Shown: positions 5,539 through 32,475 of the stretch, one piece after another
Numbering within the stretch: position 1 is the first letter of the stretch
Layout of the letters: each line of letters opens with the position of its first letter
Virus record (IMG/VR): IMGVR_UViG_2778261231_000009
Span: 1 to 32,704 of that record
Origin: a virus
Lineage: Duplodnaviria > Heunggongvirae > Uroviricota > Caudoviricetes
DNA: 32,704 nt
Strand: one strand, 5' to 3'
The notes under the pieces: model-generated
The model's input: only the letters and a program-made list of their open reading frames with translations
The model's database searches: none
What the model was told of the DNA's origin: nothing
Program-made: the position numbers and the translations under genes

Positions 5539-6853
5539 TCAGAACGTCACCGGCTTTGATATTGTTAGGATTACGTAGTGTCGGATTGAGACGCAGCAAC
5601 TCGGCGGCGCGCGTGTAGTCCTCATACCACAGGTGGGCCAGCAAATGCAGGTTTGTGTCGGACAATACCACTCGCGTAGTCAGTGGTGGTCTGCTGGTAA
5701 TAACCGCTGAGCCCAGCTCCTGAACGGTCAGGGCGATATCCTTGAGACCTTCAACCACGGGTTGCCAGGTCACGCCACCAGGTGTTTCACCGGCACTCAG
5801 GTTTTGCGTATCAGCAGCAAAGGTGTCCCGCGTCTGGTCGATTGCCTCCTGAATGGCCGTCCTGGTGTCGTTGGTGATCTGCTCAATATCAACGGGAGAC
5901 AGAATATCGCTGATGCTGCTGTCACTGAGTATGTCGGAAGCATCAAGTGCCAGCTGGATTGCAACCTGAGTTTTTACCGCCGTTACCAGCTCGGTAATAT
6001 CCGAGGTTGATGAGCCTGCCGGAACGGCAACAGCAACCGTTTTTTTCCCGGTCACTATCTGCTGAGGTAATGCGGCCACATCCTGCAGATTGTTACGGCC
6101 ATTCTTCCAGTCGGCCATCACGATGCCTGCTGTGCCGGAAACGTCTGAGGACTGTGAATAGCTTCCTGGATTATTACTGACACTTGATTTGGACTGAAAC
6201 GACGTCAGACTCAGCGCACTCTGCAGGTCATTCATGAACGATTTTGGGTAATTAACAAAATCCGAGGTGGTACTGACAAATCCCGTCAGTTCCCCCTTAA
6301 GCACGGTCACCATATTCAGCGTCGTGGTTGCCAGCGATTTCGCTTTTTTCATCCACTTTTTCGCTGTACGCAGAGGCGAGAGAATATTGTCGATGGCCGT
6401 CTGGGCTTTCTCCAGAGCGGATTGCGCCTGGTTGAAAACGATATCAGCTTTCGACAGCGGGAAATCGCTGCCAAAGAAAGGCAGATTAAGTCCCCCCTGG
6501 ATAAAGACCACTTCGACAACGCAGTAATCAACGTTCTCCGCTTCATGCGATGCCTGATACTCAATGCACTGCATGCCCGTCATGGAGCCGAAAACGGGAT
6601 GAATTAATTCTGCGCTACCGCGAGTATCCAGTGCGGCCAGAAACGCCTGCAGCCGCACATCATAATCATCACCCCAGAAAAGGACTGTCATCCGCAGGTT
6701 ACGAGGCTTGCGGCCAAGATCATCAACATCACCACCGTCGACATAGGGATACTCATACGTCGCAATGTCGCGACTGGCGCTGTCACGGGTATTAACCACA
6801 TCAAAGCGGACGCCCCTGAATGAGGCATCCTGTAATGAATCTTCCCAGCTCAC
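5522..6853 (-). CDS. DNA circularisation protein N (Mu gp43)-like, with LysM-like C-terminus
   Basis: 443 aa directly after the tape measure; C-terminal …YEDYTRAAELLRLNPTLRNPNNIKAGDVLNAY looks LysM-like. Confidence 0.8.
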   Translation of the reverse strand: MSWEDSLQDASFRGVRFDVVNTRDSASRDIATYEYPYVDGGDVDDLGRKPRNLRMTVLFWGDDYDVRLQAFLAALDTRGSAELIHPVFGSMTGMQCIEYQASHEAENVDYCVVEVVFIQGGLNLPFFGSDFPLSKADIVFNQAQSALEKAQTAIDNILSPLRTAKKWMKKAKSLATTTLNMVTVLKGELTGFVSTTSDFVNYPKSFMNDLQSALSLTSFQSKSSVSNNPGSYSQSSDVSGTAGIVMADWKNGRNNLQDVAALPQQIVTGKKTVAVAVPAGSSTSDITELVTAVKTQVAIQLALDASDILSDSSISDILSPVDIEQITNDTRTAIQEAIDQTRDTFAADTQNLSAGETPGGVTWQPVVEGLKDIALTVQELGSAVITSRPPLTTRVVLSDTNLHLLAHLWYEDYTRAAELLRLNPTLRNPNNIKAGDVLNAYSR

Positions 6854-9018
6854 TGCGGGCCTCCTGTTGAGCCGCGAACGGATTGTTCGCCGTTGTATTC
6901 ATTAACAGCTGATGCAATTTCACGTCCGTCTAATACCAGCTTTGTGGTGAGGTTAATTGGTTGTGATTTTTGTTGCTGCTGGGGCAGCAGATAAGACGAT
7001 ACGCCTGTGGTTGCTGGTGTGTTTTGACCCATAGTGGCCGGTGAACTCCACCATGATTTGATCTCATCCACGGCATCCAGCAATCCGGGGCGGGCTTTTA
7101 CTGCATCCAGCATGCGTGCTGACTCACTGGAATAATTGTCGACCTTGAGTCTCGCACGCGCATCAGCATCGCCTCGCTCAACATGAACGAGCGGCGCATC
7201 CTGCATGCCCTGGTAGAGTGCCAGCGGAGCAGCAACGCGCCCCAGAACTTTACCTGCACCACCCCGGATAGCGGACCAGGTGCGCCCCAGAGCAGTACCG
7301 CCAGCAGACGGAACTCCCCCTGCAGGAGAACCAGGCATTTTTATTCCGCCCCCCGTCAGGAAATTGAGCCCGGCAAAAGCTACAGCCGCTGCTGTCATGG
7401 CTTTAATGCCAGTGGTGGCACCTGCAATCGCAGTGGTTAGCCCCGGATACTCACCAGCATATTTGGTTAATTTTTCTGAAATGTCACCCAGTGCATCAGA
7501 TAAAGGGGCAATGGAATCCATTGCAGCAAAGTCCTGTTCGTTTTTTAACTGCCCAGTTTTATATCCCGGCTGTTCTGACATTAAAGCAAAGTTGATGTTA
7601 CCGGCAGTATTACCAACTGGTAAATTACGTTGTGAATTCGCCCCTGAAATTACGTCTTGGGTGTATTTTTTATTCCCTCTATACCCTAATAGAGCTAATA
7701 GCGCCTGCTGGTCAGCAATAATTTTACCTATACCAGAACCTTCAAGAATCCTTGCTTGCGAACTAATTATATTTTTACGTTCACTTTCCGGTGCTGTTTT
7801 GAGTTTATCTTCAAGTTTTTTATATGCTGGATTTGAAGCCACAATTTTATCAACAATCGTGTTAAAAGCTTCTAGAGGATTTATACCGTTACCAACAGCT
7901 TTTGCAAGACTTCCAGAGAGGTCAATTCCTTTACCGCTGGGTAGTTTAATCCGTGCTGCAGCGTTAGCAGCATCCTGACTATTCAGCTTTAGCAATAAAT
8001 TATTAAGGTTATTACCGGCCTCGTCCGGTGAACCTGATGTAATAGCTGACGCCTGGTTCCAGCCAAGCAAGACGGCAAAATCATCAAGACCTTTCATACC
8101 GACATTGCCAGCACTGGCAAGCTGCTTAGGAAGCCACTTAGCCATATCTTTCAATTCAAAAGAGCCACTTTGCCCAGCGCTAATTGCCATATTAAGTGCA
8201 GACTCAAGCTCACCGTCTTTTATGCCAAACGATTGTTTTAATTTTATGGCAATATTTGCCAAATCTTCTGGAGCTGCGCCAGTGGCTGTGGAATATTTTT
8301 GAATTAAAGGTAGCATCACCTTTGCTGACGGCATATCAACAGCCCCTGAAGCCAGCATTGTATCAAGGGTATCAGCTGCTGATTCTTTTGTTCCGCCGCC
8401 AGCACGAACAGCCTGGCGAACCATCGAATCCATCTCCACCATTCCTTTTCTGCGACCTTGCAGCCCTTCATCGGCATAAGCAGTATTGGCCATCATTGCA
8501 AGTCGCTGGCGATAGTCCATCTGTTTAGATACTGGTGTTGATAATACGGCCCCTGCAGCAGCAATCCCGCCAGCAACTGCAGCAACGCTGGAACCAGCAG
8601 CACGAAAGCGCTGCATGCGCGTCATTGAGTCATTCACGCCACCAAGTTCAGTCCGCAGCGTTTTGACCCTGTCAGTCATGGCCCTGAAAGCCCGATTCTG
8701 CTCATTCGCGGACAGCATGCCTGTGCGGGTAAGGCGGTTGTAGGCCGCCATGGTCTGCTGTATTTCACGCTGAATATCGCGCTCAGAACGAATACCAAGG
8801 GTAGATCGCGCCGAGCTGGCGCGACGGTATTCCTCAATCAGAGAACGGGAGGCACGAATCGCTGTGGTTGAGTTCTGCTGGCGGGATTTCGCCAGCTCGT
8901 CATCGGTCTTTTGCGCCGCTTTGGTATCACGGCTGATGCCCTGCAGTGCCTGCTTAAGCACTTTAGAGCCGGTATCACGGGCAAGCAGCTGCAGCGCCAG
9001 TTGTAAGTTACGCGCCAT
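6850..9018 (-). CDS. Tail tape measure protein
   Basis: 722 aa, Ala/Gly-rich with coiled-coil character, immediately downstream of the frameshifted chaperone; contains an AT-rich central segment. Confidence 0.85.
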   Translation of the reverse strand: MARNLQLALQLLARDTGSKVLKQALQGISRDTKAAQKTDDELAKSRQQNSTTAIRASRSLIEEYRRASSARSTLGIRSERDIQREIQQTMAAYNRLTRTGMLSANEQNRAFRAMTDRVKTLRTELGGVNDSMTRMQRFRAAGSSVAAVAGGIAAAGAVLSTPVSKQMDYRQRLAMMANTAYADEGLQGRRKGMVEMDSMVRQAVRAGGGTKESAADTLDTMLASGAVDMPSAKVMLPLIQKYSTATGAAPEDLANIAIKLKQSFGIKDGELESALNMAISAGQSGSFELKDMAKWLPKQLASAGNVGMKGLDDFAVLLGWNQASAITSGSPDEAGNNLNNLLLKLNSQDAANAAARIKLPSGKGIDLSGSLAKAVGNGINPLEAFNTIVDKIVASNPAYKKLEDKLKTAPESERKNIISSQARILEGSGIGKIIADQQALLALLGYRGNKKYTQDVISGANSQRNLPVGNTAGNINFALMSEQPGYKTGQLKNEQDFAAMDSIAPLSDALGDISEKLTKYAGEYPGLTTAIAGATTGIKAMTAAAVAFAGLNFLTGGGIKMPGSPAGGVPSAGGTALGRTWSAIRGGAGKVLGRVAAPLALYQGMQDAPLVHVERGDADARARLKVDNYSSESARMLDAVKARPGLLDAVDEIKSWWSSPATMGQNTPATTGVSSYLLPQQQQKSQPINLTTKLVLDGREIASAVNEYNGEQSVRGSTGGPQ

Positions 9019-9021
9019 GGA

Positions 9022-9254
9022 TTATCTCCGTTTGCCGACTTTCTTCCGGCGTTGCGATTTGACAGTGCGGGTTGTACGGGTGGTGGTTTGCCCGGTTTTC
9101 TTTCCATGTAACCGGGCAAGCGCTTCGGTGTAGCCGTCGAGTTCCGTTCGGGTCATGCTTCCTATTTGTTGTTCACTGATCCCGTATCGCCCGAGGGCAA
9201 GGACGAGGGTTCGGTACCCGGTGAGCTTTTGTTCAAATCCATCCGCTTTTTTTT
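9022..9254 (-). CDS. -1 frameshift extension of the tail assembly chaperone (G-T-like fusion product)
   Basis: From the slippery site the -1 frame stays open for about 74 codons (…ADGFEQKLTGYRTLVLALGRYGISEQQIGSMTRTELDGYTEALARLHGKKTGQTTTRTTRTVKSQRRKKVGKRR) and stops at TAA (plus 9022-9024) 3 nt before the tape-measure ATG. Hand-translated. Confidence 0.55.
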
Positions 9255-9545
9255 AATGGCTTCAATCTGAGCATCGATGAGATCGAAATCATCATCATTC
9301 AGTTCGTTAAGTAACAGCTCTGCCGTGATTTCTTCCTTCTGCAGGTCTCCGAGGGAAGTAATTGCACACGCCATCACCGCAACGCGGTAATACATGTTTG
9401 CGGCTGCACCTTCGGTAGTGCCGCAGGCTTCATCGGTTGCCCGCAGCGCTTCAATGGTATCGCTCACCACAGGCAGCCTGACGGCAAAGTCAAAATGGAC
9501 TTTATCACCGCATTTAACGCCATATAAAAGTTGCTGCTTTTCCAT
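9162..9545 (-). CDS. Tail assembly chaperone (Mu gp41 / lambda G-like), zero-frame product
   Basis: 127 aa between tail tube and tape measure; contains the A_AAA_AAG slippery run near its 3' end. Confidence 0.7.
   Translation of the reverse strand: MEKQQLLYGVKCGDKVHFDFAVRLPVVSDTIEALRATDEACGTTEGAAANMYYRVAVMACAITSLGDLQKEEITAELLLNELNDDDFDLIDAQIEAIKKKRMDLNKSSPGTEPSSLPSGDTGSVNNK
9246..9254 (-). promoter_or_regulatory. Programmed -1 ribosomal frameshift slippery site (A_AAA_AAG within an A8 run)
   Basis: Minus strand reads ATT AAA AAA AAG CGG; identical heptamer to the E. coli dnaX slippery sequence; location matches the conserved chaperone frameshift of tailed phages. Confidence 0.6.
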
Positions 9546-9920
9546 TTATTCCTCCACCCGACGAAGCGCATTCATGGTGATATCGCGCTTCGCTTCGTTG
9601 TCGACGGTATACTGAGCCCCGACCTGAGTGCTGAAACAGTCCAGGTAAGAAACACGTTTACCGCTGCTGTTAAGTGGATACAGGGTGATTTTCGCACCTT
9701 CAATACCGCCCCAGTTCAGGTCGCCGGATTCCGGGATAACTACCGTAACGGTCAGCTGGATCTCTTCAATGCCACGGGAAAAACCTTTGGCACGTCCCGT
9801 TTTGTTCATCGTCTTAACCAGCTTGCGTCCAGTGGTCACATCTTCCTTGAGGTCAGTCACTTCAATTTCCTGGCCGTCGACTTCCATGACGATCGCGCCA
9901 ACATATTCTTCAAGGGCCAT
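9546..9920 (-). CDS. Tail tube protein (Mu M / gp40-like)
   Basis: 124 aa immediately downstream of the sheath gene; size and synteny. Confidence 0.8.
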   Translation of the reverse strand: MALEEYVGAIVMEVDGQEIEVTDLKEDVTTGRKLVKTMNKTGRAKGFSRGIEEIQLTVTVVIPESGDLNWGGIEGAKITLYPLNSSGKRVSYLDCFSTQVGAQYTVDNEAKRDITMNALRRVEE

Positions 9921-9933
9921 TATGGTTTACTCC

Positions 9934-11352
9934 TCAGAGCAGCAAATCAATTCGACCGGCAAAGACGTGCAGGCCATTCACAACATCCGCAGGGATGCGA
10001 CCGTTCAGCTGGTTAACATCCTGCAGATCGCGCTCTACAATAAGTCCGTTTTTGTTGGCATCCACCTCCTCGACAATCTCCAGCTCCTCCAGCTTGTAAA
10101 GCACATCAAGCAGTTCACTGCGCACCTTCGGAGGTGTTCTTGAGCTGAGCTTGTCGCGCGGGAATCGCAGAGCGATGCGTTCACGGCAGGCCTTGCGCAC
10201 ATAGTCCAGCGTTCGGATGGTGGTGATATCCAGCAGCGCCACATCATCCACGCCCTGGGCGTTTTTGGTGTAGGTGCTGATCGCGCGAACGATTTGCACT
10301 TTGTCACCGGGGCCAATCTCAAACGGCGTAAGACCATTCCGCAGGGCGTTCTCCTGCTCAGTTCGCCCTGGCTGACTCTCTACTGCAGTCACGTCCAGCG
10401 TGCTCATCGCAAGGGTGTTCAGCGGGCGTGCCGGGTCCTCTTCACTGGCGATAACAGCAGCATAGGCAGCGGCGATCTGCGCCGGTGTTTTTACCGAACC
10501 GCTATGCCAGCCCAGCGTGATACGTCCGTCATTAAGTGAAGCTGCCAGTGCAATGCCGGTGGAAAGCGACTTGCGCCACCCACCCACACCGATTGCGCCG
10601 CGCTGTTCCATCGCATTGCTGACGTTTGTCAGATGGTTACGCAGCGCCGTCATCGCCTCCTGGGTGGAGAACGGACAAACAACAATGTTATGACCTGCTG
10701 AGAACGCCGCTGCCAGCGCTGGCGTAATATCCGGATCAACATTGCCGCCTGCAAGCGTGGTGGTCGCCGCTGTGATACCCGCTGCCGTTACGCCGGAAGA
10801 GACAATAATGTCGTTACCAACCGCCCCTTTATGGCGGCAGGTCAGGGTCACTTCCCCCGCGTTTGCTGTTGCCGTCACTGGCAACCCGTCTTTCTGGGTA
10901 ATCAGTTCCGTCAGCGCTGCCGCAATGGTCTCCGCCGTATCTGCTGCCGAAATACCGACATCAATACGGGTACCATTAATGGTCACGCTCAGCTTCCCGC
11001 CGGAAGATGCTGTGCCGGTCAGGGCGATTTTGCCCGTCGCGGCTGTTGCAGTGGCCGCATCGCTGACCCCGACGATCTGCAGCTGCAGATAGGGGTAGGC
11101 ACCGATGGCCGCTGTGGCCATCAGATGCGCCAGCGAGCCACGGCCAAAGTACGTCGCAGCTTCTTCATCAGAGAAAACAGACTGAATGACAAGCGGTGCA
11201 GACAAACCGGAGGCCAGCATTGGCGCAATCATCAGCACCTTCTGGGTGTTACCTGGCAGGGTACGAACGGCCAGGCGGGTGTTGAACTCAATATACTGAC
11301 CCGGCTTGCGGTTCGTACCGATAGTGTCAAAGCTGATATTAGGACTGCTCAC
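9934..11352 (-). CDS. Contractile tail sheath protein (Mu L / gp39-like)
   Basis: 472 aa; size, synteny and Gly/Ala/Thr-rich composition typical of sheath proteins. Confidence 0.85.
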   Translation of the reverse strand: MSSPNISFDTIGTNRKPGQYIEFNTRLAVRTLPGNTQKVLMIAPMLASGLSAPLVIQSVFSDEEAATYFGRGSLAHLMATAAIGAYPYLQLQIVGVSDAATATAATGKIALTGTASSGGKLSVTINGTRIDVGISAADTAETIAAALTELITQKDGLPVTATANAGEVTLTCRHKGAVGNDIIVSSGVTAAGITAATTTLAGGNVDPDITPALAAAFSAGHNIVVCPFSTQEAMTALRNHLTNVSNAMEQRGAIGVGGWRKSLSTGIALAASLNDGRITLGWHSGSVKTPAQIAAAYAAVIASEEDPARPLNTLAMSTLDVTAVESQPGRTEQENALRNGLTPFEIGPGDKVQIVRAISTYTKNAQGVDDVALLDITTIRTLDYVRKACRERIALRFPRDKLSSRTPPKVRSELLDVLYKLEELEIVEEVDANKNGLIVERDLQDVNQLNGRIPADVVNGLHVFAGRIDLLL

Positions 11353-11560
11353 CGTTCACCTCCGCGCTGGGCTCGCTGCTTTTGCTTTTGGTGTTCTTGT
11401 CACTGCTGGTGACAATAATCAGATCACCGGCCATTACCTGACGCTGGTAATAAGCGGTGTTCTCCACCTCAAGGGGTTCCGCATCAGTAATGTAGCGGCG
11501 CGCATTATCTTCGCGCGGCACGCTCAACCCTCTGGCGGCTTTTACTTTAATTTTGCTCAT
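11339..11560 (-). CDS. Small tail-associated protein, Mu gp38-like
   Basis: Internal start MSKIKVKAARGL… chosen from track ORF 11339..11584 to minimise overlap with the upstream gene; synteny before the sheath. Confidence 0.55.
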   Translation of the reverse strand: MSKIKVKAARGLSVPREDNARRYITDAEPLEVENTAYYQRQVMAGDLIIVTSSDKNTKSKSSEPSAEVNGEQS

Positions 11561-12206
11561 GACTGATAATGTCCTCTGCTGCATTGTCTTTATCAGGCTG
11601 CTTAAGATCGTAACTGAGTCGGGTTCTCAGCCATGCCGGGTCATCGTCGGTAGTGGCACCGCCATAAATCCGGAACATATGGTCAGCATGGTCTTCCGGC
11701 GCAGCCGTGAGCGGGTAACGCCCGTTCTCCAGCGCCGACTCAATCCACTTTGTGTCGAACTCACAGGCAAAAACGGAAAATGCCTGAGATTCTATCTGGG
11801 TGTTGAAGAGCGTGCGCACGCGACCAGGGCTGAGCGGGTCGATTTTGATACCCGTATCGGCCATATCCTGACCCGACAGCAGACGACGAACGGCGGCGAC
11901 CAGAATATACGTCCCCACCTCCTGCACATGCGGCCCCCCCATTCGGGCCGCTTCTTCACTGCGCAGGCTGCGCTCGCCAACCACCACGACAAAGCGACCG
12001 TGGGTGACAAACCGTTGCCGTGCTGTGCTGTACGGCTCGGTTTTTTGTACCCCGCCGAAGGTCACCCAGACCGCAGGGAGCTGGCGCAGCACCTCCGCAG
12101 GTTCGCCGTCCAGCTCGCCGCCGTAGGAGCGCACGTTCTTCACCATACGCCCCATACCTTTACGAAGGCGCTCCACGATGGCTTTTTCGATATCCGTAAT
12201 CACCAT
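11547..12206 (-). CDS. Head-tail joining / tail completion protein, Mu gp37 (K)-like
   Basis: 219 aa; synteny between gp36-like and gp38-like genes. Confidence 0.7.
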   Translation of the reverse strand: MVITDIEKAIVERLRKGMGRMVKNVRSYGGELDGEPAEVLRQLPAVWVTFGGVQKTEPYSTARQRFVTHGRFVVVVGERSLRSEEAARMGGPHVQEVGTYILVAAVRRLLSGQDMADTGIKIDPLSPGRVRTLFNTQIESQAFSVFACEFDTKWIESALENGRYPLTAAPEDHADHMFRIYGGATTDDDPAWLRTRLSYDLKQPDKDNAAEDIISHEQN

Positions 12207-17680: not shown

Positions 17681-19214
17681 AAAGCGCCTGCTTTATCAGC
17701 TGTTGCAGCTGCGCATCATCCAGCTGAGGATAACTCGCAGCAATGATATCCAGTGCCTCATCAGGGCTTTGCCCCTTGCTCAGAGCCGAGACCAGCGGCG
17801 CAATCAGCTTATCCATGGCCACCGCGATGCTCTCCCCTGGCGATGTGGCGCTGTCCAGCGCATCCTGCGCAGGGTCAATAACCTCACCCGTGGTGCTGAG
17901 TGCCGTGAAATGGCGGAATACCGGCGTGGTGCTCAGCCCCACCGGAGAGGGTGCAGCAGGCGGCGTCAGCACAGCTTCGTTATCTTTTGGTACCGGAATC
18001 CCGACCTTTTTGTGTATCCATGAGGTCGGAATAGTGTCCATCCCGGCGCGTACCAGTGCGGAAACACCATTGGCAAAGGTTTCAATGCTCTCCAGCTCGC
18101 GGGTATCAAATACCAGACGCGGCTGACGGCGCGGGCTGACGTTATAACCATTAATGGCCAGTAACATACGAATGAAGCCTCGATAAAACCCTTCCAGCTG
18201 TCGGGCATCAGCGGTCAGGAGATCGTGACGGACTTCGTTATGCACATTACCAAGGGCGTTTGTTGAGGACTTACCGTCCGCCTGTGACGTCAGCGTGCCG
18301 CCGAGAATGACCTTTGATTCGGTACGCTCGCACCAGTTAATCATCGCCATGAAAGGATCAGACTGCCCCTCGGCGGCATCCTTAAATTCGATTTTGGTGT
18401 TGTCAGGAATAATCCCCGATGCGTTATGACCGATACTGACCAGCGCTTCCATGAGTTTATCCTGCTCATCCTGGCTGGCCCCGGACATATACGACCCGAT
18501 ACGCGGCGGCAGTCCGTAGATTTCAAGGAACTCAGCGAGATCGCGCACGCTGTAGTTTTTAAACAGATACGGCCAGACCAGCACGCGGTATAACCCTGAC
18601 TGCGCGATATAACCTGACTTGGCGTTGTGCGTATGCACCAGCCAGCCAAACGGCCAGAGCTCTTCTCCACCCAGCGTGCCGGTGTTAAGACGCACCTCGT
18701 CCCCGGCTTCCGGCGTGGTACAGAACCAGCGATGCGGACGCAGTTTGATTTTGACGGGCAACCACAGATTGCCGTCAAGTTCCCACTTTTCAATCTCCTG
18801 AGCAGAAAAACCATGCCCGATAGCTTCCGCCGCGTTCAGGGTAATATCTTCCATTTCCTGAAGGTCAGCGAACCAGCTGGCCACCATCGCGGCGATCTGC
18901 TTTTCTTCCGCCGTCGCGTTCGGCGGTGGCTCGATGCTCCAGTCCAGAGTAAGCAGCGCATTCTTGCGCTTGGCCATTTCGGAAAAAATATGCCCGTCCC
19001 GCTCAACCATATCTTCGAAGAGGTCAGCCTGAGCCGCCAGATCGCCGCGCTCAGCCGCTTCAAGCAAACGAGGAAGACGGGCAATGGTCATACCCCGCGA
19101 GGGGTGAGTTGGCCAGTCGCGCTGAAGCTCGAACGTGCGGGAGGTCTGGGGGGCTTTAAGCACCTCTTTATTAAGCGGGCGACCATACTGGTCAAGAATC
19201 TGAACCATTATCAA
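17640..19214 (-). CDS. Portal protein (Mu H / gp29-like)
   Basis: 524 aa; synteny immediately after terminase large subunit. Confidence 0.85.
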   Translation of the reverse strand: MIMVQILDQYGRPLNKEVLKAPQTSRTFELQRDWPTHPSRGMTIARLPRLLEAAERGDLAAQADLFEDMVERDGHIFSEMAKRKNALLTLDWSIEPPPNATAEEKQIAAMVASWFADLQEMEDITLNAAEAIGHGFSAQEIEKWELDGNLWLPVKIKLRPHRWFCTTPEAGDEVRLNTGTLGGEELWPFGWLVHTHNAKSGYIAQSGLYRVLVWPYLFKNYSVRDLAEFLEIYGLPPRIGSYMSGASQDEQDKLMEALVSIGHNASGIIPDNTKIEFKDAAEGQSDPFMAMINWCERTESKVILGGTLTSQADGKSSTNALGNVHNEVRHDLLTADARQLEGFYRGFIRMLLAINGYNVSPRRQPRLVFDTRELESIETFANGVSALVRAGMDTIPTSWIHKKVGIPVPKDNEAVLTPPAAPSPVGLSTTPVFRHFTALSTTGEVIDPAQDALDSATSPGESIAVAMDKLIAPLVSALSKGQSPDEALDIIAASYPQLDDAQLQQLIKQALFVSEVWGRLNAES

Positions 19215-20860
19215 AATCCTCCTGAAGGACCGAACCTGTCTCCGCTATGGCCACGACGGGGAACAGCTTTAAATTCAAAATTACCAGCGCCGGAAACGGC
19301 CAGCATCCAGAGCATATGCAGGGCATCTGGCCCGTCATCATGGTCAGCTTTGGGGAAATGCCGGAGCTGGTCGATAAGTGTGGTCTGGGAAGGGTGCAGC
19401 CGTATCAGGCCGTTGGCCATATGTGGCTGCAGTGACTCAATGCGCAGGAGCTTATCAACCGAAGGCGTGACGGCCCTGGCAGGAACGGGGATACCCATCG
19501 CAGCGGAGCGCTTCACCAGTTCGGTGCGCAGGAACTCCTGGAACTGGACGGACTCGACCGCCCAGACCAGACAGTTATATTCCCGCTGCAGCTCGATAAC
19601 GTCAGAGATAATTTTGTCCGGCACACGCTTACGGATACGCGCTTCGACCACATCCAGAATGCCGGTGAAGCGGTTGAAGCCACCGACCAGTAATGCGGAA
19701 GGGTCGCGGCTGTTACCGTGTTTACCCAGGCTGGGGTCACATGCGCCATAGAAGCGCCACTCGTTAAGGCGGTTGACCCAGAAGTTAATGCAGCCGGTAA
19801 ATGGCGCATCTTCGCCGCTGACGGGATCGTTCTGATATTCCGCATCAAAGGTACTGTGGCCATCACGGGCGCGGATGAGCATCAATGCATAAAGCGGACG
19901 CGCAGCCCATGAAACAACAGCTCCTTCATCCATCTCAGCCTGATGCTCACGGTAATATGCCTGCGCCAGAACCTGACCATCTTCATCGTTGTTGCGCAGG
20001 ATCTCTTCCCATTTATCCCACAGCGACATATTGTGCGGCCAGCTGATGAGCGCTTTGAACCGGGCCCGCGTCCATAGCGGATTTTTAAGGGTGCGGGAAA
20101 GCACGGAATCGTAGTGCAGGATTGTCCCGATATACACCACATCGAACTTGGCCCCCGCACCACCGAGCGGCAGGACGGTTTTTTTGAGCCAGTTATCGAG
20201 CTTGTCACGCTGCTCAGGGTTACGCACCAGCTCGTCGTTCTCGATATCATCGAGCACAGCCAGGTCAGGACGATACGGGCCATGGCGCAGGCCACGCAGC
20301 TTTTTTCCACTACCGGCGACCTGCACCTTAATGTCGTTGCGGGTGAGAATTGTCCCGGCCTGCCAGACGCGGCCACCGCCCGTCGCTTCAGGAAAGTCCA
20401 TCAGCAGACGGGGGTTAAACTGCAGTTCCGCCTTTATCGCCTCCAGCATCGGATAGGCCTGGTCGATGGAGTCCATAATGATGACCGGGTAATGCTTGAG
20501 CGCCAGCACAATGCACCAGATGACAAAAAGCTGACTCACGATGGTGGATTTGGCTTCACCACGGGGAGCCGCTATTGCATCGTTCTGGCTCCCCGTGGCC
20601 TGGATGATTTCAGGCAGGCGCTTGTAGAGATAGTTATGCAGTTCGCTGCGGGCAGCATGGCGGACATAGTGCGGAAAATAATGCTGCACAAAGTACTCAA
20701 ACCCCGTTACAGGGTCAGCGACAAGGCCACGACGCGCAGCGACAGCAGCAGCAGAGGGGTCAAAGCCCACATCTTCCGCTTCAATGGTGCGACGAAGACT
20801 GGCGGAAAGTTCCGCAAGTTCGGCAAGAAAATCTTTGCTGGATAACTTAGTTCTGGCCAT
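19211..20860 (-). CDS. Terminase large subunit (Mu gp28-like)
   Basis: 549 aa; ATPase-like N-terminal region and nuclease-like C-terminal region; synteny. Confidence 0.9.
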   Translation of the reverse strand: MARTKLSSKDFLAELAELSASLRRTIEAEDVGFDPSAAAVAARRGLVADPVTGFEYFVQHYFPHYVRHAARSELHNYLYKRLPEIIQATGSQNDAIAAPRGEAKSTIVSQLFVIWCIVLALKHYPVIIMDSIDQAYPMLEAIKAELQFNPRLLMDFPEATGGGRVWQAGTILTRNDIKVQVAGSGKKLRGLRHGPYRPDLAVLDDIENDELVRNPEQRDKLDNWLKKTVLPLGGAGAKFDVVYIGTILHYDSVLSRTLKNPLWTRARFKALISWPHNMSLWDKWEEILRNNDEDGQVLAQAYYREHQAEMDEGAVVSWAARPLYALMLIRARDGHSTFDAEYQNDPVSGEDAPFTGCINFWVNRLNEWRFYGACDPSLGKHGNSRDPSALLVGGFNRFTGILDVVEARIRKRVPDKIISDVIELQREYNCLVWAVESVQFQEFLRTELVKRSAAMGIPVPARAVTPSVDKLLRIESLQPHMANGLIRLHPSQTTLIDQLRHFPKADHDDGPDALHMLWMLAVSGAGNFEFKAVPRRGHSGDRFGPSGGF

Positions 20861-24213: not shown

Positions 24214-24648
24214 TTAAAAAAGTTCTTGTTGATTGATTGATGTGTTTTGTCTGTGCTGGCTTAGTAACTGCCATCCAAAACGATCGCTGAATCCATACTT
24301 AGGGCAAAGAAAGGTCATGGCCATAAGAGAGGATGAACCTTGTTCACGCACTTCGGCGAACTCGGCGAGAAAGCGGCGGTTGCGTAATTCACGAAGGGCA
24401 CGATCACAGCGCGGTAAATAGAGAACTTCTCCGCCGAAATTCTTGATGAGTAATTGGGTTTTATCATCGCCGATAGTATTGCGCAGGAGGGCTGCGCGGC
24501 TGGCCCCCATAGCGCGGAGGCCTTTACCTATCGGGAACGTGGTGCCACCAAAAGCAGAAAGAAGCTGCTCGGTCGCCGGGAAGCCTATCAGGTCAGCTAT
24601 TTGAATCACTGCTGATGGCAGCAGCTCCGTTACCTGTTCCAGATTCAT
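24214..24648 (-). CDS. Mor/C-family transcriptional activator
   Basis: Internal start MNLEQVTELLP…; GGEVLYLPRC… and the basic C-terminal half resemble Mu Mor/C; overlaps the 3' end of the GemA-like gene. Confidence 0.7.
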   Translation of the reverse strand: MNLEQVTELLPSAVIQIADLIGFPATEQLLSAFGGTTFPIGKGLRAMGASRAALLRNTIGDDKTQLLIKNFGGEVLYLPRCDRALRELRNRRFLAEFAEVREQGSSSLMAMTFLCPKYGFSDRFGWQLLSQHRQNTSINQQELF

Positions 24649-25069
24649 TATTACGCTCCCGCTTTTTTCGCCGACTCGCATCAATGCTGAGAGCCTGCAT
24701 GAGTTTGGTTAACTGTTCAGTCGTCAACCACTCGATGTATTTGACGTGAAACATATGATCGCACATTTTCTCGGCATAATTCCACGGACGTTTTGCATCT
24801 GCAAGTAATGCGTTAATTTTAGAAAGAATTGACTCGCGCGTATTGGCAACCTTTGGGCGTCGACCGTGTTTTACTGAGTAGCGAGGAAAACCCTTGTCAT
24901 GCATATATTCCATGACAGCCTGCAGCTCGTCGAGGGTGCATTTAGTGGATGATGTTTTACCGTTGCATAAGCGAGACAGAACACTACGGTAGGTTACCTC
25001 ATCCCACCCCAGATATGCCTGACCGGCTTTAATTGCCCCTATAAGGCCTCGTTTTGCTGGCGTGGACAT
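24593..25069 (-). CDS. GemA-like regulatory protein (Mu gp16, DUF1018-type)
   Basis: Internal start MSTPAKRGLIGAIKAGQAYLGWDEVTYRSVL… preceded by a GGAG Shine-Dalgarno; matches the N-terminal pattern of GemA-family proteins. Confidence 0.7.
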   Translation of the reverse strand: MSTPAKRGLIGAIKAGQAYLGWDEVTYRSVLSRLCNGKTSSTKCTLDELQAVMEYMHDKGFPRYSVKHGRRPKVANTRESILSKINALLADAKRPWNYAEKMCDHMFHVKYIEWLTTEQLTKLMQALSIDASRRKKRERNNESGTGNGAAAISSDSNS

Positions 25070-25136
25070 AATATTTCTCCTGTTGGTTGTCATTATCGCA
25101 GGCACTTTATGAAGTGCCTGCTGTAATGACTTACTT

Positions 25137-29478: not shown

Positions 29479-30372
29479 TTAATGGATCAGCATTTCAGCT
29501 ATCTGGTTGACGATATGACCGCTGACCGGAACATCATTCATCGCGCTGGTGCGGACCGCACCGCGCAGCAGCTTGAACAATCGGCGGGCGTTACCTTTTG
29601 ACGCATTGAACAGCGCTTTGCTCAGGTCTTCATTCAGGCCATCCGGGAGAACGCTGCTGGCGATGACGTCAATATCAGCACCCGGCAGGCTATGCCCGAG
29701 GTTGAGGGCGAAACCGACACGGCTATAGAGCTGTACGAGCTCACCGCGTTTGCCCTTGAGGTTCAGAATCAGGCGAGGCATACCAACCAGGACGATGCCG
29801 ATCCCCGTTTTGTCATGGATGCGGCGGATAGATTCCAGCGCACGCAGAGGGAGGTTCTCGGCTTCATCAATAATCAGCACGCGTCCGGAGTCGCGCAGCT
29901 TGTTGATGCAGGCCTCGCTGAGTTCGTGCATATTGCCGCGCGTACTGAGCCCCAGCAGGTTACAGAGCTCTTCCAGGACTACCCGTGCGGTGTAGCCAGG
30001 GTCTGCCTCAATCAGCAACGCATCCCGGTATTTGGAGACGTAGGCTTTGCAAATCATCGTCTTGCCCAGACCGGCTTCGCCGTAGAGCACGTTGATATCA
30101 CCTTCGACGTGTGCCATGCGTATAACATCAACGGCTTTGCGCGTTGTTGGGGTATCAACAAATTTGACGCTGATACGTGCCGAACGTTCTTTTTCATGCT
30201 GACGATCGATAAAGCTACGAATATCGTTTTCCAGCGATACAATATCGCCGTCGTATTTATTATTCAGATACTGGCTGATTACGGCCGAGCTCTTACCAAT
30301 GGCGCGGGCGACCTGTGTCTGGTTAAGACCTTTTGCTTTCATCAGTTCGACAAGTTCATTTTTAGCTGACAT
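29479..30372 (-). CDS. B: Transposition ATPase / target DNA activator (Mu B-like, AAA+)
   Basis: 297 aa; N-terminal HTH-like region (LNQTQVARAIGKSSAVISQYLNNKY), Walker A GEAGLGKT, Walker B-like VLIIDEAE; directly downstream of the transposase. Confidence 0.85.
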   Translation of the reverse strand: MSAKNELVELMKAKGLNQTQVARAIGKSSAVISQYLNNKYDGDIVSLENDIRSFIDRQHEKERSARISVKFVDTPTTRKAVDVIRMAHVEGDINVLYGEAGLGKTMICKAYVSKYRDALLIEADPGYTARVVLEELCNLLGLSTRGNMHELSEACINKLRDSGRVLIIDEAENLPLRALESIRRIHDKTGIGIVLVGMPRLILNLKGKRGELVQLYSRVGFALNLGHSLPGADIDVIASSVLPDGLNEDLSKALFNASKGNARRLFKLLRGAVRTSAMNDVPVSGHIVNQIAEMLIH

Positions 30373-30417
30373 AATTACTTCCTCTGTTTTAGTAAATCAG
30401 CGGCCTGTGATGTCCAG

Positions 30418-32475
30418 TCAGAAGGTCGCTTTTTTATTGCCCTGACTTTTCAGCCATTCTTCACGCTCTGATTCGAACAGGAACACATGTTCCCGAGCAT
30501 CATTAATACGCTCTGCGTCCGATGGTATTAATGCGCCGAAATCAGGGTACATATCGCTTTCAGGAAGCAGGCCTCTTGCCTCTGCTTCAATCTCTTCCCG
30601 TTGTTCGTCGATGCGCTTCAGACGACGCTGGCGACGTTTCTCAACGGCGATATCCATCATGCTGGTTGGCAGCGCGGCACGCTTATTGCCGTTCCAGATG
30701 GCGGTGCAGACATAAGTACCGTCCATGCGACGAACGATGACGGCAGCAGGGTCGTGAATGTCATAGGCGACCCGGACTTCCTCACCGTCGACCTGTATCA
30801 GGTCAGCGCTGAAATACTGGTTATTCATCAGGTCAATCCAGCCCCGCTGGGCGGTGCGGCACATTTCCGGCATGAAGGCTTCACGAAGCTCGATATCCGT
30901 CAGATATTCAATATCGTCACCCTCAGTGGCCAGAACCTCGCGGCGGTACTGTGCTGGCGTCATATGCACACCATTACGTTTTGGTAGCTCGCTGTGCTCA
31001 TGCAGGTTGTTGTATTTGTCGACTTCCTCAGCAATGGTATCCAGCAGCATCTGCCACGACGGCAATTTACGCAGCGCGTTACGCTGTACGCTCGTGAGTT
31101 CGCGCCCATTCTCCTGAGCCTTAATCGCTGACTGGATAGCGCGACCGGTCATCCGCACATGCTCACGGTCGGCCCCGAATCCATTGTAAGTATCAAATTT
31201 ATTGGCAATCGCTCTCGGTATTACGGCGTTCAGTCGTTCGATAATCCCGCGTGACTGCGGTCGACCCGGAATACTGGTCGGGTGATCAATACCCATGCGA
31301 GTGAAAATACCGGTGATATCAGCATCCAGCGTTTTATTGGTTTCACCGCCACCGTTATCCGAATAGACAAAAAGAGGTTTTCCGTGGAATTTCATGGCGT
31401 AGCGATAGGCATCCGCTACGGCGATGACGTTCTCTGAGAGCGCCAGGCTCCAGCCCACCAGGTAGCGGGTGCGGCCATCGATAACCAGCGTCAGTTCAGG
31501 TGTGAATGGACGACCATGGACCGGATGAGCAACTTTCATATCCAGCGATTTACCATCCGCAATCCAGCAACCATTTACTGGCATTTGTGACCAGTCACGC
31601 TTCTGATAAACCTCATAAGCCAGAGCCGCTGAACCGCTGATACGGCCGCGAGCGCGTTCACGTTTTGGTAGCTTTTCCATCGCCCGACGCACGGCATCAT
31701 AAGACGGACAGACGGCGAGCATCGCTGGCTGTCCCGCATAAATAGCCTGCCATTCAGTCTTGAATGAGCGCCACGCATCCACCAGAGAAGGGCCTGAGAG
31801 TTTCCGCCAGTGGGCGAGAAAATCAGGGAGCCACTTAATCTGCTCAGGCTTACGCGCTTTAAGATGGCCTGGTGCCAGCAAAGCCAGGCGTTCGATACCT
31901 GGACGTGTAGAAAGGTAAACAGACAGCCATTCCTGAAGTGTTCTTTCGCCCACGCCACGACGGCTGGAACCTTTACGCGCATTGGCAATATCAGCCGCAG
32001 CCTGGATGTTTTCCGGCAACGTGCCCTTGCGTGACTCTTTGGCGATGAACTCAACCGCCGATGCGCGTGACATACCGATATCCCGAAGACGCTCAACCTC
32101 TGCGGCTAATAATGCGCGGGCGTCGGCGATCTGTTTCTGGCGTTCGGTAAGGTCAGAGACCTCACGCTCCAGCAATACCGGGCACTGCCGCAATAACGTC
32201 AGTTCGTCGCGGGTCGTGGTGACTTCCCGCTTTGGTGCAGTCGGCGCTGATGAACAATCAGACTGTTTCAGCACCTCGCGATAATGCCGGGCTTTGACTA
32301 TTTCACGCGCCTGTTCAGGCAGGCAGTCGATGTGGTACTCGAATGCTTTGCTGCCAGCACGTTTGCGAACCAGTTCAGGGGAGTTGCCTGCACTTTTTTT
32401 AAGGCTGTATCGCAGTCCTTGTTGTGTTGTTGGCAGTCCAGGGACGCCAACTAATTCGTTAACAGTCACGAACAT
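30418..32475 (-). CDS. A: DDE transposase (Mu A-like)
   Basis: 685 aa; N-terminal DNA-binding region, central integrase-like catalytic core; resembles MuA; ATG overlaps the ner stop. Confidence 0.9.
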   Translation of the reverse strand: MFVTVNELVGVPGLPTTQQGLRYSLKKSAGNSPELVRKRAGSKAFEYHIDCLPEQAREIVKARHYREVLKQSDCSSAPTAPKREVTTTRDELTLLRQCPVLLEREVSDLTERQKQIADARALLAAEVERLRDIGMSRASAVEFIAKESRKGTLPENIQAAADIANARKGSSRRGVGERTLQEWLSVYLSTRPGIERLALLAPGHLKARKPEQIKWLPDFLAHWRKLSGPSLVDAWRSFKTEWQAIYAGQPAMLAVCPSYDAVRRAMEKLPKRERARGRISGSAALAYEVYQKRDWSQMPVNGCWIADGKSLDMKVAHPVHGRPFTPELTLVIDGRTRYLVGWSLALSENVIAVADAYRYAMKFHGKPLFVYSDNGGGETNKTLDADITGIFTRMGIDHPTSIPGRPQSRGIIERLNAVIPRAIANKFDTYNGFGADREHVRMTGRAIQSAIKAQENGRELTSVQRNALRKLPSWQMLLDTIAEEVDKYNNLHEHSELPKRNGVHMTPAQYRREVLATEGDDIEYLTDIELREAFMPEMCRTAQRGWIDLMNNQYFSADLIQVDGEEVRVAYDIHDPAAVIVRRMDGTYVCTAIWNGNKRAALPTSMMDIAVEKRRQRRLKRIDEQREEIEAEARGLLPESDMYPDFGALIPSDAERINDAREHVFLFESEREEWLKSQGNKKATF

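What the first reader, a model, noticed from the sequence alone, without database searches (positions are those of the whole stretch)
9022..9545. dnaX-type A_AAA_AAG -1 frameshift joining the tail chaperone to an extension ending at the tape-measure start
The zero-frame chaperone ORF contains AAAAAAAAG (minus strand) near its 3' end. Hand translation of the -1 frame from that point is open for about 74 codons and terminates 3 nt before the tape-measure ATG, while the +1 frame stops almost immediately. This is the classic short/long chaperone pair of tailed phages.
Basis: seen in the sequence. Interest (0 to 1): 0.5.

Follow-up and report, generated by a model that had tools for sequence, protein, structure and literature searches.

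The report
Tail-chaperone frameshift in Mu-like prophage
A Mu-like prophage makes its tail assembly chaperone in a short and a long form by letting some ribosomes slip back one base on AAAAAAG; this is a well-supported but ordinary case of a trick known in most tailed phages, and public records do not annotate it.

Summary
On the minus strand, the 127-codon ORF 9545..9162 lies between the tail tube gene and the tape measure gene. It contains A_AAA_AAG (9252..9246) in the correct register. The -1 frame from G9246 is open for 74 codons and stops 3 nt before the tape measure ATG (9018). The +1 frame closes after 4 codons.

Comparative evidence makes this much more than chance. In 62 of 63 related loci found without using the slip site, the A8-G run sits in the same frame and the -1 ORF (68-77 codons) ends at the tape measure start. 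Purifying selection switches from the zero frame to the -1 frame at the heptamer.

No dnaX-like stimulators were found: no upstream SD-like element, no downstream structure and no Rfam match. The label "dnaX-type" therefore holds for the heptamer only.

The chaperone is a remote homologue of Mu gp41. Mu itself uses a -2 shift at a different site.

RNA polymerase slippage on the A8 run would give the same protein and cannot be excluded.

Verdict: a real, conserved and unannotated G/GT-type recoding site, and a new member of a known kind.

The parts
9546..9920 (-). Tail tube gene (124 aa). Its stop TAA 9548..9546 abuts the chaperone ATG.
   Evidence: phrog_185 tail tube protein, E = 3.5e-33; ORF list.
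9162..9545 (-). Zero-frame tail assembly chaperone ORF, the 'G' form (127 aa, stop TAG 9164..9162).
   Evidence: Translation. phrog_508 tail assembly chaperone, E = 2e-37. Pfam Gp41_Mu scores 24 bits, below the cut-off of 27. A deep profile matches the Mu gp41 family with 96.9% probability. The protein is identical to the Salmonella enterica protein P0004.
9246..9252 (-). Slippery heptamer A_AAA_AAG in zero-frame register (codons K99 and K100 plus the last base of K98).
   Evidence: It is conserved in frame in 62 of 63 relatives found without using this motif.
9247..9255 (-). T followed by a run of eight A. T9255 with A9254 and A9253 forms a UAA stop in the -1 frame directly 5' of the heptamer.
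   Evidence: The run length A8 is found in 62 of 63 loci. The 5' base is T in 56 and C in 6.
9022..9246 (-). -1 frame extension, the 'T' part: 74 sense codons (9246..9025) plus TAA 9024..9022. The predicted fusion 'GT' is M1-K100 plus 74 aa, 174 aa in all.
   Evidence: Translation. pN/pS in the -1 frame is 0.55 and 0.35, against 1.2 and 1.0 in the zero frame. Contiguous 174-aa versions exist where the run is A9 (L009, L034/P0001).
9022..9156 (-). The 44-codon ATG ORF that gene callers sometimes annotate as a separate small gene. It is the last part of the -1 extension.
   Evidence: It matches phrog_11893 and is called separately as P0087 and P0091. The SD strength before its ATG is at background level.
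9026..9029 (-). GGAG Shine-Dalgarno sequence of the tape measure gene. It lies inside the last codons of the -1 extension.
   Evidence: Sequence. The anti-SD duplex energy is -6.6 kcal/mol and the element is conserved in relatives.
6850..9018 (-). Tape measure protein gene (722 aa). Its ATG 9018 lies 3 nt after the -1 frame stop.
   Evidence: Pfam PhageMin_Tail, E = 6.6e-22.
9934..11352 (-). Tail sheath gene (472 aa), upstream context.
   Evidence: Pfam Phage_sheath_1 and Phage_sheath_1C.

Best explanation
This is a programmed -1 ribosomal frameshift in the tail assembly chaperone gene of a Mu-like transposable prophage.

Most ribosomes read the zero frame. They make a 127-aa chaperone ('G' form) that ends in an unconstrained Ser/Pro-rich tail. 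A minority, with tRNA-Lys on AAA-AAG in the P and A sites, slip back one base on A_AAA_AAG (9252..9246). They continue in the -1 frame for 74 codons and terminate on the Shine-Dalgarno/ATG region of the tape measure gene. The product is a 174-aa 'GT' fusion.

By analogy with lambda G/GT, both forms would bind the tape measure protein. The extra domain would recruit the tube subunit, so that a fixed low GT:G ratio is set by the slip frequency.

Shown here: the anatomy, the conservation of the site, the frame switch in selective constraint, the absence of an independent start for the first 30 codons of the extension, and the absence of recognisable stimulators.

Inferred: that the shift is ribosomal, that its efficiency is low (about 0.3% to a few per cent), and what the two proteins do.
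For: Anatomy:
- The heptamer is in register.
- The -1 ORF is 74 codons long and ends 3 nt before the tape measure ATG.
- The +1 frame is closed after 4 codons.
- The 143-nt 'gap' between the chaperone stop and the tape measure start has no promoter or terminator on this strand.

Identity:
- phrog_508 tail assembly chaperone, E = 2e-37.
- The gene order is sheath, tube, chaperone, tape measure, DNA-circularisation protein, baseplate hub.
- The element also carries MuA, a MuB-like protein, a Mu portal, and Mu F, I and T proteins.

Conservation:
- A8-G is in frame in 30 of 33 loci from the first searches.
- It is in frame in 62 of 63 loci found with peptide patterns that do not include the slip site, down to about 50% protein identity.
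- In those loci the -1 ORF is always 68-77 codons. In 25 of the 29 loci of the first searches where the distance was measured, its stop lay 0-3 nt before, or 1 nt into, the tape measure ATG.

Selection, from 61 unique sequences:
- Upstream of the site, pN/pS is 0.43 in the zero frame and at least 1.0 in the other two frames.
- In the first 90 nt after the site, it is 0.55 in the -1 frame and 1.2 in the zero frame.
- In the next 54 nt, it is 0.35 in the -1 frame and 0.99 in the zero frame.
- Identity of the extension tracks identity of the N-domain, while the zero-frame tail does not.

No independent start:
- A UAA precedes the heptamer in the -1 frame, and there is no ATG, GTG or TTG before codon 31.
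- SD strength before the conserved Met31 is at background: -2.8 against -2.6 kcal/mol, compared with -6.6 at the tape measure start.

Literature:
- A_AAA_AAG is among the most shift-prone heptamers in E. coli because the single tRNA-Lys pairs weakly with AAG (PMC5009743).
- It gives 0.29% frameshifting with no stimulator, 4.3% with the IS911 stimulators and 39% with the IS3 pseudoknot (PMC4066793, Table S3).
- It is already a listed 'true' tail-chaperone site in E. coli prophages, cluster A_AAA_AAG_25, ECs1801.
- The lambda G:GT ratio of about 30:1 is needed for tail assembly (PMC5009743).
Against: - There is no experimental evidence for the fusion protein.
- No stimulatory element was found. 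The window's own downstream fold has z = -0.16. RNAalifold finds 3 invariant pairs with no covariation. None of 53 relatives has z < -2, and the upstream anti-SD pairing is weaker than background. Rfam gives nothing. With the bare heptamer, the reporter value is only about 0.3%.
- The strict conservation of A8, rather than just the six A's the heptamer needs, also fits RNA polymerase slippage, which would give the same protein.
- The AlphaFold model of the fusion is of low confidence (pLDDT 59) and gave no fold match. The role proposed for the extension therefore rests on analogy only.
Confidence: 0.8

Rival explanations
1. The same GT fusion is made mainly at the RNA level. RNA polymerase slips on the template of the A8 run and adds one A to a fraction of transcripts, which are then translated normally.
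For: - The run length A8 is conserved in 62 of 63 loci although the heptamer needs only six A's plus G.
- No ribosomal stimulators were found.
- Variants with A9, A7 and perhaps A6 occur in assemblies, so the run is mutationally or enzymatically slippery.
- Bacterial RNA polymerase slips efficiently on runs of 9 A or T (PMC5009743, section 43).
Against: - A8 is one base short of the run length for which efficient slippage is documented.
- The extra two A's are explained if Lys98 is conserved for protein reasons, because its third base must be A for the heptamer.
- The register and the terminal G are exactly those of the best E. coli ribosomal heptamer.
- The hosts are Enterobacterales, in which a single tRNA-Lys makes AAG shifty.
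- The sequence alone cannot separate the two mechanisms.
Confidence: 0.12
2. There is no recoding. The region 9156..9022 is an independent small gene (44 aa) that starts at its own ATG, as some genome records annotate it.
For: - The ATG at 9156 is invariant in all relatives.
- Gene callers list 41-44 aa proteins here (P0087, P0091).
- phrog_11893 matches this stretch.
- The Klebsiella phage ST405-OXA48phi1.1 record annotates a separate short ORF.
Against: - The 30 codons between the slip site and this ATG are under purifying selection in the -1 frame (pN/pS 0.55, against 1.2 in the zero frame). They encode a conserved motif, GYR..VLALGRYGI.
- Those codons have no start codon and are preceded by a UAA in that frame.
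- SD strength before the ATG is at background.
Confidence: 0.04
3. The A8 form is a frameshift-mutated (pseudogenised) or mis-sequenced version of a single 174-aa gene. The true gene would have A9.
For: Contiguous 174-aa ORFs with A9 exist in L009/L041 and in L034 (P0001, on 3 contigs).
Against: - A8 is found in 62 of 63 independently sampled loci, across many genera and sequencing projects, while A9 is found in 1.
- The A9 cases are nearly identical to A8 neighbours.
- Such uniform conservation of a 'broken' state is not expected for pseudogenes. The zero-frame stop and tail vary freely, while the site itself does not.
Confidence: 0.03
4. It is a chance co-occurrence of an A-run and an open -1 frame, with no function.
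For: The window holds 11 AAAAAAG matches against 5.3 expected, so A-rich heptamers are not rare here.
Against: - The site, its register and the -1 ORF are conserved down to about 50% identity.
- Selection switches frame at the site.
- It is the only in-frame heptamer in a real gene of the window whose -1 ORF passes the gene's own stop.
Confidence: 0.01

Closest known systems
Lambda G/GT tail assembly chaperones (-1 shift on G_GGA_AAG), and the conserved frameshift of tailed phages described by Xu, Hendrix & Duda 2004
   Same: - The position is the same, between the major tail/tube gene and the tape measure gene.
[quoted passage not shown]
- The heptamer ends in A_AAG.
- No strong RNA stimulator is evident. 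For lambda this last point is from my own knowledge.
   Different: - There is no detectable sequence similarity to lambda G or T; no Pfam lambda-type family was hit.
- This is a contractile-tail, Mu-like phage.
- The heptamer is A_AAA_AAG.
- The slip site lies 27 codons before the zero-frame stop, so the short form carries a sizeable tail that is under no detectable selection.
Phage Mu gp41 and its -2 frameshift product
   Same: - The genomic slot is the same, in a Mu-type transposable phage.
- The chaperone domains are remotely homologous (hhalign 96.9%, E = 1.3e-10 over 88 columns).
- In both, the shift occurs at the C-terminal edge of that domain.
   Different: - Mu shifts -2 on a G-run (CGGGGGCGA) into the other frame (PMC5009743; PMC2628397). 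Here the shift is -1 on A8-G, and the +1/-2 frame is closed after 4 codons.
- Pairwise similarity is nil.
- The Pfam Gp41_Mu score is below the cut-off.
- The two extensions show no similarity.
E. coli dnaX tau/gamma frameshift signal
   Same: The heptamer A_AAA_AAG is identical, and so is the dependence on the shifty enterobacterial tRNA-Lys.
   Different: - dnaX has an upstream SD-like element and a downstream stem-loop, reaches about 50% efficiency and gives a truncated product.
- Here neither stimulator was found and the product is extended.
E. coli O157 prophage tail assembly chaperone ECs1801 (cluster A_AAA_AAG_25 of Sharma et al. 2014)
   Same: It is a tail assembly chaperone gene with a conserved in-frame A_AAA_AAG and a longer frameshift product, listed as a true case.
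   Different: It comes from a different prophage. I did not test homology to the present protein. A hairpin was predicted for that cluster (N/Y in Table S4), and none was found here.

Membership tests
Frameshift-made tail assembly chaperone pair of tailed phages (lambda G/GT type; Xu, Hendrix & Duda 2004) | Two overlapping ORFs lie between the major tail/tube gene and the tape measure gene. | tested here: met
   The order is tube 9920..9546, chaperone 9545..9162, -1 ORF 9246..9022, tape measure 9018..6850.
Frameshift-made tail assembly chaperone pair of tailed phages (lambda G/GT type; Xu, Hendrix & Duda 2004) | [quoted passage not shown] | tested here: met
   A_AAA_AAG at 9252..9246, covering codons 98-100 of 127.
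Frameshift-made tail assembly chaperone pair of tailed phages (lambda G/GT type; Xu, Hendrix & Duda 2004) | The downstream ORF has no start of its own and is conserved as protein from the slip site onwards. | tested here: met
   A UAA lies directly 5' in the -1 frame, and there is no start codon for 30 codons. pN/pS is 0.55 in the -1 frame against 1.2 in the zero frame. SD strength before Met31 is at background.
Frameshift-made tail assembly chaperone pair of tailed phages (lambda G/GT type; Xu, Hendrix & Duda 2004) | The slip site and the two-ORF layout are conserved among relatives. | tested here: met
   62 of 63 loci found without using the site; 30 of 33 loci in the earlier sets.
Frameshift-made tail assembly chaperone pair of tailed phages (lambda G/GT type; Xu, Hendrix & Duda 2004) | Both proteins are made at a fixed low ratio, both are needed for tail assembly, and both are absent from virions. 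| not testable with these tools
   This needs proteomics, genetics or reporter assays.
PHROG 508 (tail assembly chaperone) | Significant match to the family profile. | tested here: met
   E = 2e-37, 129 bits, residues 2-125.
Pfam Gp41_Mu (PF23746) / Phage_TAC_7 | Score at or above the Pfam gathering threshold. | tested here: not met
   24.0 bits against a cut-off of 27. Of 80 family members, 15 match Gp41_Mu and 3 match Phage_TAC_7 at E <= 1e-3.
Pfam Gp41_Mu (PF23746) / Phage_TAC_7 | Homology to Mu gp41 relatives by profile-profile comparison. | tested here: met
   The deep alignment A5 against the Mu gp41 family A4 gives 96.9% probability and E = 1.3e-10 over 88 columns. The shallow alignment A1 gave only 13%, and pairwise BLASTP gave E = 0.24.
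Mu-type -2 chaperone frameshift | The extension is encoded in the +1/-2 frame and is reached at a G-run. | tested here: not met
   The +1/-2 frame closes after 4 codons. Mu's own extension is in the +1/-2 frame.
dnaX-type frameshift signal | A_AAA_AAG heptamer in register. | tested here: met
dnaX-type frameshift signal | An SD-like element about 10 nt upstream. | tested here: not met
   The mean anti-SD duplex energy 4-20 nt upstream is -0.47 kcal/mol in 53 relatives, against a background of -2.48.
dnaX-type frameshift signal | A stable stem-loop a few nt downstream, or a match to the Rfam frameshift element. | tested here: not met
   z = -0.16 for the window. There is no covarying consensus structure. 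None of 53 relatives has z < -2. There is no Rfam match at E <= 10 other than two chance snoRNA hits.
Programmed transcriptional slippage | A homopolymer run long enough for RNA polymerase slippage (9 or more A/T documented as efficient). | tested here: inconclusive
   The run is A8 in 62 of 63 loci, and the documented threshold is 9. Low-level slippage at A8 cannot be judged from sequence.

The most novel reading that the evidence does not exclude
The invariant A8 run is two A's longer than the heptamer needs, and no ribosomal stimulator is present. The run may therefore work mainly, or additionally, as an RNA polymerase slippage site. In that case the G:GT ratio of this Mu-like phage lineage would be set at transcription rather than at translation. 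That would be a mechanism not established for tail chaperone pairs, as far as I know and as far as the papers read here show.
Probability: 0.12. Interest if true: 0.5.

Novelty: new member of a known kind. Interest (0 to 1): 0.25.

Why it matters
Practical value:
- The 174-aa GT fusion is missing from the annotated records examined. RefSeq calls the chaperone 'hypothetical protein' and leaves the gap empty. A phage record calls a separate small ORF. PHROGs lists the tail end of the extension as a family of unknown function. Recognising the recoding site corrects the annotation of a prophage family that is widespread in Enterobacterales.

Evolutionary value:
- A remote homologue of Mu gp41, in a Mu-type phage, reaches its extension by a -1 shift on A_AAA_AAG. 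Mu itself uses a -2 shift on a G-run. The need for two chaperone forms is conserved while the slip site, the direction of the shift and the extension sequence have been replaced.

Neither point changes current understanding of phage tail assembly or of recoding.

Tried and rejected
- Nucleotide search in phages found only a Klebsiella phage at 68% identity and two short Mannheimia hits. tblastn of the fusion against phages found only that Klebsiella phage. The family is essentially known from prophages.
- NCBIfam gave no match.
- PDB sequence search with the family profile gave nothing meaningful (E = 0.3).
- The AlphaFold2 model of the contiguous fusion P0001 had pLDDT 59 and pTM 0.37. It is helical with a disordered basic tail. 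Foldseek against BFVD gave no hit at E <= 0.001. I therefore abandoned fold-based assignment of the extension.
- Pairwise BLASTP to Mu gp41 (E = 0.24) and a shallow profile comparison (13%) failed. Only the 80-sequence profile succeeded.
- The extension profile showed no similarity to Mu's -2 extension.
- Searches for stimulators were all negative: single-sequence fold, RNAalifold, Rfam, and per-relative folding plus an anti-SD scan.
- The promoter and terminator scan of 8800..9700 found nothing on the minus strand.
- In the first pN/pS run, the rows for the upstream region were mislabelled; the row marked '+1' was in fact the zero frame. I repeated the analysis with correct labels and more sequences.
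- The idea that the T before the A8 run is an essential part of the signal was weakened. One clade has C at that position.

Full report
**Observation**

All features are on the minus strand.

- A 127-codon ORF runs from ATG 9545 to TAG 9164..9162.
- Its start abuts the stop of a 124-aa tail tube gene (9920..9546; phrog_185, E = 3.5e-33).
- Codons 98-100 are AAA AAA AAG (9254..9246), preceded by T9255.
- A_AAA_AAG (9252..9246) is therefore in the X_XXY_YYZ register needed for tandem -1 slippage.
- Reading from G9246 in the -1 frame gives 74 sense codons (ADGFEQKLTGYRTLVLALGRYGISEQQIGSMTRTELDGYTEALARLHGKK...GKRR) and a TAA at 9024..9022.
- Three bases later, ATG 9018 opens a 722-aa tape measure gene (Pfam PhageMin_Tail, E = 6.6e-22).
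- The +1 frame closes after 4 codons.

**Context**

The window is a Mu-like transposable prophage.

- It carries a MuA-type transposase (30418..32475) and a MuB-like AAA protein (29479..30372).
- It also carries a Mu portal, Mu F, protease/scaffold I, major head gpT and gp37.
- The tail genes follow in the order sheath, tube, chaperone, tape measure, DNA-circularisation protein and gpP-type hub.
- The zero-frame protein is identical to a Salmonella enterica protein seen on 203 contigs (P0004).
- It matches phrog_508, 'tail assembly chaperone', at E = 2e-37.

**Is it more than chance?**

- Among in-frame X_XXY_YYZ heptamers in the long minus-strand ORFs of the window, this is the only one in a real gene whose -1 ORF runs past the gene's own stop.
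- In-phase A_AAA_AAG is strongly avoided in E. coli genes, z = -10.1 (PMC4066793, Table S3).
- The decisive evidence is comparative. Three searches gave related loci:
  - a close-relative scan of viral contigs;
  - a scan of one genome per species;
  - a second viral scan whose peptide patterns (DDDFDLID and VRLPVVRDT) do not include the slip site.
- In that last, unbiased set, 62 of 63 complete loci carry A8-G with AAG in the chaperone frame. One carries A9.
- In all of them the -1 ORF is 68-77 codons long. In 25 of the 29 loci of the two earlier scans where the distance was measured, its stop lies 0-3 nt before, or 1 nt into, the tape measure ATG.
- The relatives go down to about 50% protein identity. 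They come from Salmonella, Escherichia, Citrobacter, Kosakonia, Trabulsiella, Pectobacterium, Serratia, Yersinia, Erwinia, Klebsiella and Symbiopectobacterium.

**Which frame is translated?**

I used 61 unique sequences and Nei-Gojobori counting.

| Region | Zero frame pN/pS | -1 frame pN/pS | +1 frame pN/pS |
|---|---|---|---|
| 88 codons upstream of K98 | 0.43 | 1.53 | 1.01 |
| First 90 nt after the heptamer | 1.2 | 0.55 | 1.04 |
| Next 54 nt | 0.99 | 0.35 | 1.89 |

- Nucleotide diversity concentrates at the third positions of the -1 frame from the first codon after the slip site.
- Identity of the extension to the window tracks identity of the N-terminal domain, for example 56/43, 82/68 and 61/59 per cent.
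- The zero-frame tail is far less conserved (23-57%) and varies from 13 to 30 residues.
- The frame under selection therefore changes at the heptamer. The Ser/Pro-rich zero-frame tail shows no sign of constraint.

**Could the extension be a separate gene?**

- Some records and gene callers list a 41-44 aa ORF from ATG 9156. phrog_11893, of unknown function, matches it.
- The 30 conserved codons upstream of that ATG have no start codon and are preceded by UAA in their frame.
- Pairing to the anti-SD sequence before the ATG is at background level (-2.8 against -2.6 kcal/mol). It is -6.6 kcal/mol at the tape measure start.
- Independent initiation cannot account for the conservation.

**Could A8 be a broken or mis-sequenced gene?**

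- Contiguous 174-aa fusions with A9 do exist (L009/L041; L034 = P0001). An A7 form occurs in a Symbiopectobacterium genome assembled from a metagenome (L029).
- They are rare against the uniform A8 state across many lineages and projects.
- They do show exactly what the fusion protein looks like (..AIKKKADGFEQ..).

**Stimulators**

- The 115 nt from the run onwards fold no better than shuffles (z = -0.16).
- RNAalifold on 14 diverse relatives finds three invariant pairs and no covariation.
- None of 53 unique relatives has a downstream 50-nt fold with z < -2.
- Upstream anti-SD pairing is weaker than background, -0.47 against -2.48 kcal/mol.
- Rfam gives nothing relevant.
- The site resembles dnaX only in its heptamer.
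- In an E. coli reporter the bare heptamer gives 0.29% frameshifting, against 4.3% with the IS911 stimulators and 39% with the IS3 pseudoknot (PMC4066793, Table S3).
- I therefore infer a low efficiency. This fits a chaperone pair, since lambda works at about 30 G to 1 GT (PMC5009743).

**Mechanism**

- The best reading is ribosomal tandem slippage of tRNA-Lys on A_AAA_AAG. In enterobacteria this is favoured by the single tRNA-Lys, which pairs weakly with AAG (PMC5009743).
- The -1 ORF ends within the SD/ATG region of the tape measure gene (GGAG 9029..9026), so the whole tail module is read without a gap.
- The roles of the two forms are inferred from lambda and were not tested. In that model both forms bind the tape measure protein and the extension recruits the tube protein.
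- The model of the fusion is mostly helical with a disordered basic tail, but its confidence is low (pLDDT 59). It gave no fold match.

**Main rival**

- RNA polymerase slippage on the A8 run would add an A to some transcripts and give the same protein.
- For it: A8 is strictly conserved although six A's would do, no ribosomal stimulators were found, and the run length visibly varies in assemblies.
- Against it: efficient slippage is documented for runs of 9 (PMC5009743). Lys98 plus the heptamer requirement explains A8. The register and terminal G are those of the best ribosomal site.
- Sequence alone cannot decide. I give this rival about 0.12.

**Relation to known systems**

- The arrangement meets every sequence-testable criterion of the conserved tail-chaperone frameshift of tailed phages. 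I cite Xu, Hendrix & Duda 2004 through PMC2628397 and PMC5009743.
- A_AAA_AAG is already a listed true case in an E. coli prophage tail chaperone, ECs1801.
- Relation to Mu gp41:
  - Pairwise similarity is absent (E = 0.24).
  - The Pfam Gp41_Mu score is below the cut-off, 24 against 27 bits.
  - A shallow profile fails.
  - An 80-sequence family profile built from the exhaustive search (169 clusters at E <= 1e-3) matches the Mu gp41 family at 96.9% probability and E = 1.3e-10 over 88 columns.
  - The chaperone domain is therefore a remote homologue of Mu gp41.
- Mu itself reaches its extension by a -2 shift on a G-run. The two extensions show no similarity.
- Many distant family members keep a Lys-Lys-Lys at the end of the domain (45 of the 130 proteins of at least 95 aa examined). 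The Lys-run slip site therefore seems old in this family.

**Verdict**

This is a real, strongly conserved -1 recoding site that makes a G/GT-type pair of tail assembly chaperones in a Mu-like prophage. It is ordinary in kind, unannotated in the records examined, and free of recognisable stimulators. It is a new member of a known kind, of low to moderate interest.

Noticed in passing
L009/L041 1791-1802; L034 1791-1802; L029 1485-1494; proteins P0001, P0002, P0082, P0139, P0198: The length of the A-run varies in public assemblies. A9 gives a contiguous 174-aa fused ORF. A7 gives a truncated chaperone plus an upstream-extended -1 ORF. Some 170-aa representatives read ..KKAD.., as if the run were shorter still. 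These may be homopolymer sequencing errors or real slippage mutants; I did not resolve which.
   Followed up: partly
window 9255 (-): The base 5' of the A8 run is T in 56 of 62 unbiased loci, although it is the wobble base of Ile, Val, Leu or Ala codons (ATT, GTT, CTT, GCT). It creates a UAA in the -1 frame directly before the heptamer. One clade (L086, L088-L092) has C, so T is not essential.
   Followed up: partly
window 9193..9216 (-): Codons 11-18 of the -1 frame (TAC CGA ACC CTC GTC CTT GCC CTC) show low synonymous variation across relatives. They lie 31-54 nt after the slip site. No conserved structure or covariation was found there. The cause is unexplained; it may be codon bias, the overlap with the zero frame, or an undetected RNA element.
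   Followed up: partly
window 9022..9156 (-): The last 44 codons of the extension start with an invariant ATG. Gene callers list them as a separate small protein (P0087, P0091), and phrog_11893 (unknown function) matches them. That PHROG family is probably the tail end of frameshift products.
   Followed up: yes
window 11934..11940 (-): An in-frame G_GGG_GGG run lies at codon 89 of the gp37-like gene (12206..11547). Its -1 ORF is 57 codons long and ends inside the gene.
   Followed up: no
window 20300..20306 (-) and 24662..24668 (-): There are two further in-frame A_AAA_AAG heptamers, in ORF 20860..19211 and in ORF 25105..24593. Their -1 ORFs are short (11 and 3 codons) and would give truncated products if used.
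   Followed up: no
L033 (phage Mu) 3553-4140; proteins P0092, P0094, P0122: Contiguous 187-199 aa versions of Mu's own -2 frameshift fusion (..TQERGEWLRCRNDIEKAAT..) occur in assembled public reads. This mirrors the A9 forms seen in the present family.
   Followed up: no
L029, L030 (Symbiopectobacterium), L031 (Erwinia tracheiphila), L022 (Pectobacterium): In several genomes the module looks degraded. These include Symbiopectobacterium genomes assembled from metagenomes and a draft Pectobacterium assembly. The defects are a truncated chaperone, an altered end of the extension, or an early stop in the tape measure start. They are consistent with decaying prophages or with draft-assembly errors.
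   Followed up: no
window 29479..32475 (-): A MuA-type transposase (685 aa) and a MuB-like AAA protein with an N-terminal HTH domain (297 aa) lie at the high-coordinate end of the window. The window therefore spans most of a transposable prophage, from the transposition genes to the baseplate.
   Followed up: partly
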